NCBI RefSeq assembly: GCF_035594765.1 | Contig: NC_085843.1 | Location: 200,299,971 to 200,363,970, forward strand | DNA length: 64,000 nt | DNA from: Anolis carolinensis | Lineage: Eukaryota | Direction: 5' to 3' | In this document: piece by piece, positions 55,884 to 56,357 of the stretch | Numbering within the stretch: position 1 is the first letter of the stretch | Layout: each line of letters opens with the position of its first letter | Program-made: the position numbers and the translations under genes | Notes under the pieces: generated by a model | The model's input: only the letters and a program-made list of their open reading frames with translations | The model's database searches: none | What the model was told of the DNA's origin: nothing

Positions 55884-56357
55884 TTACAAGTCCTCCTCAG
55901 AATTTGAGCCAGCTAACGCCCCATCCACAGCTGAACCTTGGTGCTGCAAATTCTCATCAGAGCTGGAGCCGCCCAATGTCCCATCTCCAGCTGCTGCCCC
56001 TCTACGATCTCTCCAGCCAGTCCACCTTCTATCCAAACCCATAACTCCCCAGGATCCATCTGTATCTTCTCTGTGCCATCCCTCAAATGTACCACTGCTT
56101 GTGGGTTCCTCAAGAATCTCCCGGATCTCCTGAACCTTAGTCCACTCCATTACTTCACTCCCAGAGTCTGACATCCCATCCTCCTGACTCCCAGCCCCAT
56201 AATCCCCTTCAAAGCCCTCAAAAGTATCATCATCAATGGGCTCCATAAGTATTTCCCGGATTCTCTTTCTTTATTGCTCCTCATCGGAGTCTTGTTCACG
56301 AATAGTTTTCCTGCCTCTTCTAATACAACTAGTAGGATCTCTACTCGAAGACTCCAT
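55884..56357 (-). pseudogene. LTR-encoded acidic ORF (157 codons, one in-frame TAA at 56271-56273) with two IREIL.EP....TFEG[F/W] motifs
   Basis: ATG at 56357 is in frame with the listed 120-aa ORF; the duplicated motif is conserved through five synonymous changes. Confidence 0.6.

What the first reader, a model, noticed from the sequence alone, without database searches (positions are those of the whole stretch)
55884..56357. Solo LTR encodes a protein with two selected helix-linker-FxG[F/W] motifs resembling LEDGF/TND-binding motifs
Seen: on the inferred LTR sense strand (minus) an ATG 8 nt inside the LTR (56357) opens MESSSRDPTSCIRRGRKTIREQDSDEEQ*RKRIREILMEPIDDDTFEGFEG...VQEIREILEEPTSSGTFEGWHRE...SNSEEDL*. 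That is 157 codons with a single stop, ending exactly at the TATA-like TAAATAAAAG. The two 17-codon blocks (56211-56261 and 56076-56126, 45 codons apart) share 11 identical residues, 5 of them via synonymous third-position changes (GAA/GAG, ATA/ATT, GAG/GAA, ACT/ACA, GGC/GGA), which argues for protein-level constraint. Established: an alpha helix, an acidic or phosphorylatable linker and FxGF form the IBM/TIM motif by which MLL1, JPO2/CDCA7L, PogZ and IWS1 bind the LEDGF/PSIP1 IBD and other TFIIS-N-terminal domains; HIV integrase uses the same LEDGF surface for targeting; U3-encoded proteins exist (MMTV Sag, HIV Nef). Inference: this LTR family encodes a host-mimicking tether, either a U3 accessory protein or a C-terminal extension of Pol/integrase. 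The frame has no stop between the LTR edge and the ATG, so read-through from the internal region is possible. It could steer integration or recruit elongation factors.
Basis: partly seen in the sequence, partly recalled or inferred. Interest (0 to 1): 0.85.

Follow-up and report, generated by a model that had tools for sequence, protein, structure and literature searches.

The report
Retrotransposon integrase tail mimics LEDGF partners
The end repeat (LTR) of a lizard jumping gene carries a protein-coding stretch that, in intact sister elements, forms the tail of the insertion enzyme where relatives carry a chromodomain, and a short motif in it closely resembles the host's LEDGF-binding motifs, so it likely tethers the element to active genes much as HIV does.

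Summary
Window 55157-56364 is a solo LTR with a 5-bp target duplication, from a Tf1/sushi-type (chromovirus-lineage) Gypsy family. Its codon-29 stop is private (1 of 30 copies). In intact sister families, pol reads in frame across the polypurine tract into the same LTR frame (25 of 30 junctions open). The frame lies in U3, forms the integrase C-terminal tail, and no chromodomain is present. The tail is under purifying selection between families (dN/dS 0.20-0.39). A profile of motif 1 ranks the LEDGF-bound JPO2 motif first in the PDB (E 0.022) and picks the host's three CDCA7L/CDCA7 motifs. A complex prediction with the lizard LEDGF domain gave only weak support (0.43 against 0.01). A second squamate clade has decayed chromodomain cages plus similar motifs. 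Against: both internal-bearing copies of the window's own family are out of frame at the junction, motif 2 is non-canonical, and neither binding nor insertion bias is measured. No prior report was found in ten literature searches.

The parts
55157..56364 (-). Solo LTR (1208 bp) of a Tf1/sushi-type Gypsy family, called family W here; 5-bp target-site duplication on both sides
   Evidence: same LTR found at the 3' end of an internal-bearing copy with RT/RH/INT
55884..56357 (-). U3-encoded frame of 157 codons; homologue of the integrase C-terminal tail of intact sister families; private stop at codon 29 in this copy
56307..56321 (-). Basic patch RRGRK (codons 13-17), seen in families W, D, A and B (basic variant in C); possible nuclear-localisation element (inference)
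56211..56270 (-). Motif 1 (codons 30-49): helix-like segment, 8-residue acidic linker, FEGF; TIM/IBM-like, present in all five families of the clade
56133..56150 (-). Conserved acidic-then-Trp element (M-D/E-W-T) in all five families; role not tested
56076..56126 (-). Motif 2 (codons 78-94): internal duplicate of motif 1 ending FEGW; seen only in families W and D
55878..55886 (-). TATA-like element overlapping the stop codon
   Evidence: family A has a similar element about 32 nt upstream of its self-primer site
55842..55852 (-). Inferred transcript 5' end (start of R): resembles the 11-mer that pairs with the self-priming PBS in families A and B; by analogy only, since no W PBS was seen
55521..55647 (-). 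Three 40-bp-spaced direct repeats in the R/U5 part of the LTR
   Evidence: family D15
55195..55200 (-). AATAAA near the LTR 3' end, at a like position in families A and B

Best explanation
The frame is the LTR-encoded (U3) copy of a selected integrase tail of a chromodomain-less Gypsy retrotransposon clade, and its helix-acidic-FxGF motif likely binds the host LEDGF/HRP2 integrase-binding domain and would thereby tether the integration complex to transcribed chromatin. Shown: in intact sister families pol runs through the polypurine tract for about 140 codons into the 3' LTR; no chromodomain follows the GPY/F-SH3 region; the tail is under purifying selection; motif 1 matches the host's JPO2/CDCA7 motifs in residues and spacing. 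Inferred: that the tail stays on mature integrase; that the window's own family was in frame while active; that the partner is LEDGF or HRP2; that linker Ser/Thr are phosphorylated as in host motifs; that binding biases insertion towards H3K36me2/3 gene bodies. The solo LTR in the window is a decaying passenger copy, likely untranslated, since the frame lies upstream of the inferred transcription start.
For: Pol to tail in one open frame: family A 20 of 20 junctions, B 4 of 5, C 1 of 2 open (2 of 2 in the same frame) (30 of 40 scored loci examined). Full elements L083 (LTRs 100% identical, pol 1214 codons ending 138 codons inside the LTR) and L084 (1218 codons). Pfam finds PR, RT, RH, INT and SH3 but no Chromo in either at E<=0.1, while 8 of the 11 non-Anolis database relatives listed carry PF00385. 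dN/dS 0.20-0.39 in 14 of 14 between-family pairs; period-3 signal in a DNA-only alignment. W versus D: motif 1 has 16 identical, 3 synonymous and 1 replacement codon; the linker has 12/4/9. PDB profile search: top hit 6EMO, LEDGF IBD-JPO2 M1, E 0.022 among 177,635 sequences. The same profile picks three host motifs upstream of the two zf-4CXXC genes as the top 3 of 1628 six-frame segments. The reverse profile, from those three host motifs, ranks motif 1 of the clade in the top 7 places among 171 proteins. Complex prediction, lizard PSIP1 domain plus motif 1: 0.43 against best control 0.01, weak support; runs agree in at least 87% of contacts, partner pLDDT at least 59; a like complex is solved, so the pass may be from memory. 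FxGF is reported as essential for LEDGF/HRP2 partners (passages of PMC9987994). Family C has no Met ahead of motif 1. Self-priming pair places the RNA start downstream of the stop.
Against: All 3 W-like internal-bearing copies are out of frame between GPY/F and the tail. Two are shifted at the purine run, in the same phase, with pol stopping on a codon that overlaps the tail's start codon; the third has an in-frame junction and a break further upstream. The state of the nearest copy is real, not an assembly slip: contigs of 3 runs cover it without gaps. One of 5 family-B copies is also shifted at this run, so slippage there does occur. Within family W, variants are neutral or nearly so (omega 1.44 private, 0.72 shared by 3 or more; other frames give similar values), as expected of decaying solo LTRs. 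Motif 2 does not score on the host-motif profile beyond its helix. W has Leu where the host motifs and families A-C have the anchoring Phe. The prediction class reached (score 0.60 or under) held only 5 of 78 solved complexes and all 4 mismatches that passed, and was not calibrated on peptides. Insertion-site bias was not tested.
Confidence: 0.55

Rival explanations
1. The tail is part of integrase and binds a TFIIS-N-terminal domain, but for a purpose other than choosing the site: nuclear retention, stabilising integrase, or recruiting elongation factors (IWS1, ELOA, TFIIS, MED26, PPP1R10) or HRP2 to the new copy.
For: Same coding and motif evidence. The helix plus acidic linker is the obligate part of the motif and is read by several TND proteins (PMC9987994 passages). 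Only one partner was modelled, and the tool notes that a pass does not tell family members apart.
Against: The strict FxGF in motif 1 of all five families points to LEDGF/HRP2. The tail sits at the position where relatives carry their targeting chromodomain.
Confidence: 0.2
2. In the window's family (W, and perhaps D) the frame had become a separate accessory protein, made by stop-restart or frameshifting at the pol end, that acts in trans (Nef/Sag-like).
For: Both W internal-bearing copies show pol stopping on a codon that overlaps the tail's start codon, in the same phase. The ATG is kept in 27 of 30 W LTRs. W and D gained a second motif.
Against: n = 2 and both copies are decayed elsewhere. 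The purine run differs in length between them and also slips in family B (1 of 5). The closest sister copy (L055) has an in-frame junction. The overlapping stop is a by-product of the LTR terminus and exists in the alternative frame of the in-frame families too. Family C lacks a Met before the motif.
Confidence: 0.12
3. The tail is a disordered acidic extension kept for some general property (charge, nuclear import, an unknown partner for the Trp-containing elements); the likeness to LEDGF-binding motifs is compositional chance.
For: The motif is short; the PDB match is marginal (E 0.022); the complex score is weak; other short elements (M-D/E-W-T, W-x-x-W-R-D) are conserved too.
Against: Reciprocal profile searches pick out exactly the host motifs and the element motifs. 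A motif pattern occurred in 2 of 133 integrase tails against a mean of 0.055 and a maximum of 1 in 200 shuffles. Motif 1 is the most constrained segment between W and D. A second clade carries paired motifs next to decayed chromodomain cages.
Confidence: 0.13

Closest known systems
Vertebrate Tf1/sushi chromoviruses (V-clade: Sushi-ichi, Amn families); nearest database relatives P0004, P0005, P0146 from squamates
   Same: gag / -1-frame pol with PR-RT-RH-INT order, GPY/F-SH3 region, self-priming PBS, pol reading past the purine tract into the LTR (PMC6317226 passages)
   Different: No chromodomain; the LTR-encoded part carries a selected TIM-like motif that P0004, P0005 and P0146 lack
Plant CRM group A centromeric chromoviruses (CR motif)
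   Same: Chromodomain position taken by an unrelated targeting motif that is encoded in the 3' LTR, with pol reading into the LTR (PMC3059260 passages)
   Different: Plant clade, centromeric, partner unknown. Here the motif resembles a defined host linear motif, and the listed copies are spread along chromosomes
Host TND-interacting motifs (TIM/IBM) of JPO2/CDCA7L, CDCA7, MLL1, IWS1, PogZ, JIL-1
   Same: Helix, acidic Ser/Thr-containing linker and FxGF with the same 8-residue spacing as JPO2 M1; paired motifs as in JPO2
   Different: Encoded by a mobile element; no DNA similarity to the host CDCA7L/CDCA7 loci (best blastn E 0.29 over 60 kb), which fits convergence or an old capture; binding not measured
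Lentiviral integrase-LEDGF and gammaretroviral integrase-BET tethering
   Same: Integrase co-opts a chromatin reader; MLV uses a short motif in the flexible integrase tail (PMC5053271 passages)
   Different: HIV binds the LEDGF domain with its folded catalytic core; MLV's motif binds the BET ET domain. A retrotransposon integrase with an FxGF-type LEDGF motif was not found in the papers searched

Membership tests
Ty3/Gypsy, Tf1/sushi group | PR-RT-RH-INT order with GPY/F-SH3 region | tested here: met
   Pfam on two intact sister elements; RT, RH and INT fragments in the W internal-bearing copy
Ty3/Gypsy, Tf1/sushi group | Self-priming PBS complementary to the element's own RNA 5' end | tested here: met
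   11-nt PBS pairs with LTR nt 455-465 in family A, with a compensatory change in family B; not seen for W, whose 5' LTR-PBS junction is missing in the copy examined
Ty3/Gypsy, Tf1/sushi group | Groups with chromodomain-bearing vertebrate elements in trees | tested here: met
   Own clade (SH-aLRT 100, includes W copies) nests with squamate chromodomain elements (96; 100); quick trees
Chromovirus in the structural sense | Chromodomain at the integrase C-terminus | tested here: not met
   No PF00385 at E<=0.1 in 2 of 2 intact pols; none visible between SH3 and purine tract in W copies
TND-interacting motif (TIM/IBM), motif 1 | Helix with aliphatic/aromatic anchor | tested here: inconclusive
   Anchor residues align with JPO2 M1; helix not shown directly, and one search gave no interface
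TND-interacting motif (TIM/IBM), motif 1 | Acidic linker of 8-16 residues, often with Ser/Thr | tested here: met
   8 residues, 4 acidic in the window copy; definition from PMC9987994
TND-interacting motif (TIM/IBM), motif 1 | FxGF | tested here: met
   Invariant in the 6 aligned copies from 5 families; 29 of 30 W copies
TND-interacting motif (TIM/IBM), motif 2 | Acidic linker and FxGF | tested here: not met
   Ends FEGW, linker mostly Ser/Thr/Gly; no host-profile score beyond the helix; still conserved between W and D
TND-interacting motif (TIM/IBM) | Measured binding to a TND, enhanced by CK2 phosphorylation | not testable with these tools
   Only a weak in-silico pass for motif 1
Stand-alone U3 accessory gene (Nef/Sag type; recalled) | Own start codon and own or spliced transcript, separate from pol | tested here: inconclusive
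   Fused to pol in A, B, C; no Met before the motif in C; W copies out of frame; transcripts not seen
CRM group A (CR motif) | CR motif sequence and centromeric location | not tested
   No CR-motif profile was searched; listed copies are spread along chromosomes, centromere positions unknown

The most novel reading that the evidence does not exclude
Squamate chromovirus-lineage retrotransposons have switched their targeting module from a heterochromatin-reading chromodomain to linear mimics of host LEDGF/HRP2-binding motifs, possibly twice: one clade lost the chromodomain and encodes the motif in U3; another keeps a chromodomain with a decayed aromatic cage and carries two motifs ahead of the purine tract. 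This would be a non-retroviral, convergent route to the tether that HIV uses.
Probability: 0.4. Interest if true: 0.87.

Novelty: new variant of a known kind. Interest (0 to 1): 0.72.

Why it matters
How vertebrate LTR retrotransposons choose insertion sites is largely open. This gives a named host partner, a 20-residue motif and a direct binding and insertion-mapping test, in families young enough to have identical LTRs. If true, LEDGF/HRP2 tethering is not a lentiviral speciality but was reached by a retrotransposon through mimicry of the host's own linear motif. It also offers a natural series (intact chromodomain; decayed cage plus motifs; no chromodomain) for studying how targeting modules are swapped. 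It explains why hundreds of solo LTRs in this genome carry a long open frame, some of which enter gene models (P0139).

Tried and rejected
Pattern searches for full-length W copies: one search found none; one search gave 3 hits, none with a PBS; one search gave 17 hits, 1 internal-bearing; one search gave 10 hits, 3 internal-bearing, all already known. Within-family dN/dS was uninformative. Single-sequence PDB search with an open W copy: 0 hits at E<=10. Pfam on that copy: one sub-threshold, implausible hit. ESM Atlas: no usable hit, which shows neither absence nor novelty. Expression: no RNA holder listed; the 4 runs laid were contigs of uncertain type and say nothing on transcription. Capture of the motif from host CDCA7L/CDCA7: no DNA similarity, so recent capture is not supported. 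One origin for both motif-bearing clades: not rejected (AU p 0.06, 14 rows, quick LG tree), so independent origin is favoured but not shown. The careful tree did not finish. The own-clade profile did not score the second clade's motifs above 5 bits; the host profile scored them weakly (0.9-5.5 bits). My chromodomain pattern under-detects (73 of 133; it missed P0143 and P0156, which Pfam calls Chromo). Seventeen of 150 proteins were dropped there because no GPY/F end was located, among them the two tail-only hits. Earlier scan findings: nothing in 3 look-ups. Three primary TIM/IBM papers were not held. Insertion-site bias could not be tested, as G000 has no annotation.

Full report
Observation. 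The frame is as described. It lies in a 1208-bp element at 55157-56364 (minus strand) with TGTT...AACA ends and a 5-bp target duplication. A DNA search of the own genome gave 720 candidates, 40 scored. None of the 30 fetched showed internal coding sequence in its flanks; 26 of 30 have a TSD with at most one mismatch, so they are solo LTRs. The window's stop at codon 29 occurs in 1 of 30 copies. 15 of 30 are open from start to the shared stop; FEGF is kept in 29 and FEGW in 25. A protein search scored 150 matches of 82% identity or more over the first 100 codons.

What element it is. A purine-tract pattern led to one copy with an internal region: decayed gag, RT, RNase H and integrase of Gypsy type. 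Its integrase end retrieved sister families. Two are young and intact: L083 (family A; LTRs 100% identical; pol 1214 codons) and L084 (family B; 1218 codons). Pfam finds protease, RT, RNase H, integrase and the Tf2-type SH3 region but no chromodomain. Gag and pol overlap with a GGGAAAA slippery-type site, and the 11-nt PBS pairs with the element's own LTR, with a compensatory change between A and B. Self-priming is the Tf1/sushi hallmark (PMC6317226, passages). That the pairing site marks the RNA 5' end is recalled from Tf1 work. It puts the start about 32 nt past a TATA-like element and downstream of the stop codon, so the frame is wholly in U3. A solo LTR would therefore not transcribe it from its own promoter. 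The nearest database proteins are labelled Anolis carolinensis.

The frame is the integrase tail. Among 30 junction loci examined (of 40 scored), pol reads in one open frame from the GPY/F region across the purine tract through motif 1 in 20 of 20 family-A, 4 of 5 family-B and 1 of 2 family-C copies (both C copies are in the same frame). The tails align with the window's frame from the LTR edge to the stop. The three W-like copies are all out of frame. Two are shifted at the purine run in the same phase, with pol ending on a stop that overlaps the tail's start codon; the third has an in-frame junction and a break upstream. Contigs of three runs confirm the state of the nearest copy. One B copy slips at the same run, and family C has no Met before the motif. 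I read the W state as decay, but a separately made protein in W is not excluded.

Selection. Between families dN/dS is 0.20-0.39 in 14 of 14 pairs (protein-guided; the C and D copies used are frameshifted in their 3' parts); the W-W pair gives 0.85. Without protein guidance, A versus B differs at 26/21/60 of 138 codon positions with a single 6-nt indel, against 59/230, 65/224, 52/227 and 34 gaps downstream. Between W and its sister D, motif 1 has 16 identical, 3 synonymous and 1 replacement codon; motif 2 has 9/6/5; the linker has 12/4/9. Within W, variation is neutral or nearly so, as expected after insertion.

The motif. A TIM is a helix plus an 8-16-residue acidic linker, with an optional FxGF that is essential for LEDGF and HRP2 partners (PMC9987994, passages). 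A profile of six natural motif-1 copies, run against 177,635 PDB sequences, ranks the LEDGF IBD-JPO2 M1 fusion (6EMO) first at E 0.022; two unrelated hits follow at 0.23 and 2.2. In 60 kb upstream of the genome's two zf-4CXXC genes (read as CDCA7L and CDCA7 from the JPO2 match and the domain), the same profile picks three host motifs as the top 3 of 1628 segments. A profile of those three ranks motif 1 of the clade in the top 7 places among 171 proteins; motif 2 scores only on its helix. No DNA similarity to the host loci was found. Folding lizard PSIP1 residues 400-492 (P0021) with a 39-residue motif-1 stretch gave weak support: 0.43 against a best control of 0.01, partner pLDDT at least 59, run agreement at least 87%. 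The mark was reached by 51 of 78 solved complexes and 2 of 108 mismatches, but at 0.60 or under by only 5 solved complexes and all 4 passing mismatches. Peptides were not calibrated, and like complexes are solved, so it shows likeness.

Wider pattern. The nearest relatives outside the clade (P0004, P0005, P0146) carry chromodomains and no motif. A second squamate clade (P0008, P0016, P0017, labelled Podarcis muralis; P0143 and P0156 unnamed) carries a chromodomain followed by helix-acidic-[F/L]xGF segments, paired in the first four, ahead of the purine tract. In these, the first and third aromatic-cage positions are not aromatic (cage positions by comparison with P0004 and P0007; cage concept from PMC3059260 and PMC6317226 passages). 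In P0187 Pfam no longer calls a chromodomain. P0005, which has no motif, also lacks cage residues, so cage loss and motif gain are not strictly tied. The motif pattern occurred in 2 of 133 integrase tails against 0.055 in shuffles, so it is rare among relatives. Quick trees keep the two motif-bearing clades apart, but one origin is not rejected (AU p 0.06).

Mechanism. Most likely the full-length RNA is translated as Gag-Pol by a -1 frameshift, and integrase keeps a disordered tail of about 140-160 residues encoded by the purine tract and U3. Motif 1 would dock on the LEDGF or HRP2 integrase-binding domain, whose PWWP domain reads H3K36me2/3, and so hold the integration complex on transcribed chromatin in place of the lost chromodomain. 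Coding and fusion in sister families are shown (my confidence about 0.9). In-frame fusion in active W elements is inferred (about 0.8), TND binding is inferred (about 0.7), and site steering through LEDGF/HRP2 is inferred (about 0.5).

Comparison and novelty. Plant CRM group A elements also encode a chromodomain-replacing motif in the 3' LTR (PMC3059260, passages). MLV uses a tail motif for BET proteins and HIV a folded surface for LEDGF (PMC5053271, passages). Ten full-text searches showed no report of an FxGF/TIM motif in a retrotransposon integrase. I saw listings and abstract openings for most hits, and passages only of 10.1101/624023, PMC9987994, PMC10854676, PMC8022399, PMC3059260, PMC5053271 and PMC6317226; no supplements were read. 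Subscription journals and Repbase reports are not covered. Verdict: real, selected, a new variant of a known kind; interest 0.72.

Noticed in passing
P0008, P0016, P0017, P0143, P0156, P0187 (integrase C-termini): A second squamate chromovirus clade with non-aromatic chromodomain cage positions followed by TIM-like FxGF segments before the purine tract.
   Followed up: partly
P0004, P0005, P0146, P0148, P0204, P0210 (C-termini): In several chromodomain-bearing vertebrate relatives the protein appears to continue past a Gly-rich (purine-tract-like) stretch, so reading into the LTR may be a general habit that gave the tail its raw material; judged from protein sequence only.
   Followed up: no
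P0139: A host gene model (uncharacterized, labelled Anolis carolinensis) ends in a complete LTR tail fused to a fragment of another element: LTR frames enter annotation and could be exapted.
   Followed up: no
L089:1500-1810 (G000:C2:143718346-143718648): Intronless PSIP1-like copy with a stop in the integrase-binding domain, likely a processed pseudogene.
   Followed up: no
L083:4366-4376 with LTR nt 455-465; L084 equivalent: Self-priming PBS with a compensatory base change between families A and B.
   Followed up: yes
window 16255-16605, 26848-27197, 29793-30135, 31178-31528, 37154-37526, 41719-42069, 49887-50243: Seven copies of a roughly 340-bp element with terminal inverted repeats and TA flanks (MITE-like; class recalled, not searched).
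   Followed up: no
window 13290-13775, 42050-42481, 58289-59221: Three related 3' fragments of a non-LTR element with a Cys-His and endonuclease-like frame beside (TAA)n/(ATT)n repeats; the longest open frame is 281 codons.
   Followed up: no
window 4905-5447: Mariner-like transposase fragment (recalled from motifs, not searched).
   Followed up: no
L041 and L042 (G000:C3:283826964 and 283871147): Two family-W LTRs with identical flanks 44 kb apart: segmental duplication or assembly duplicate.
   Followed up: no
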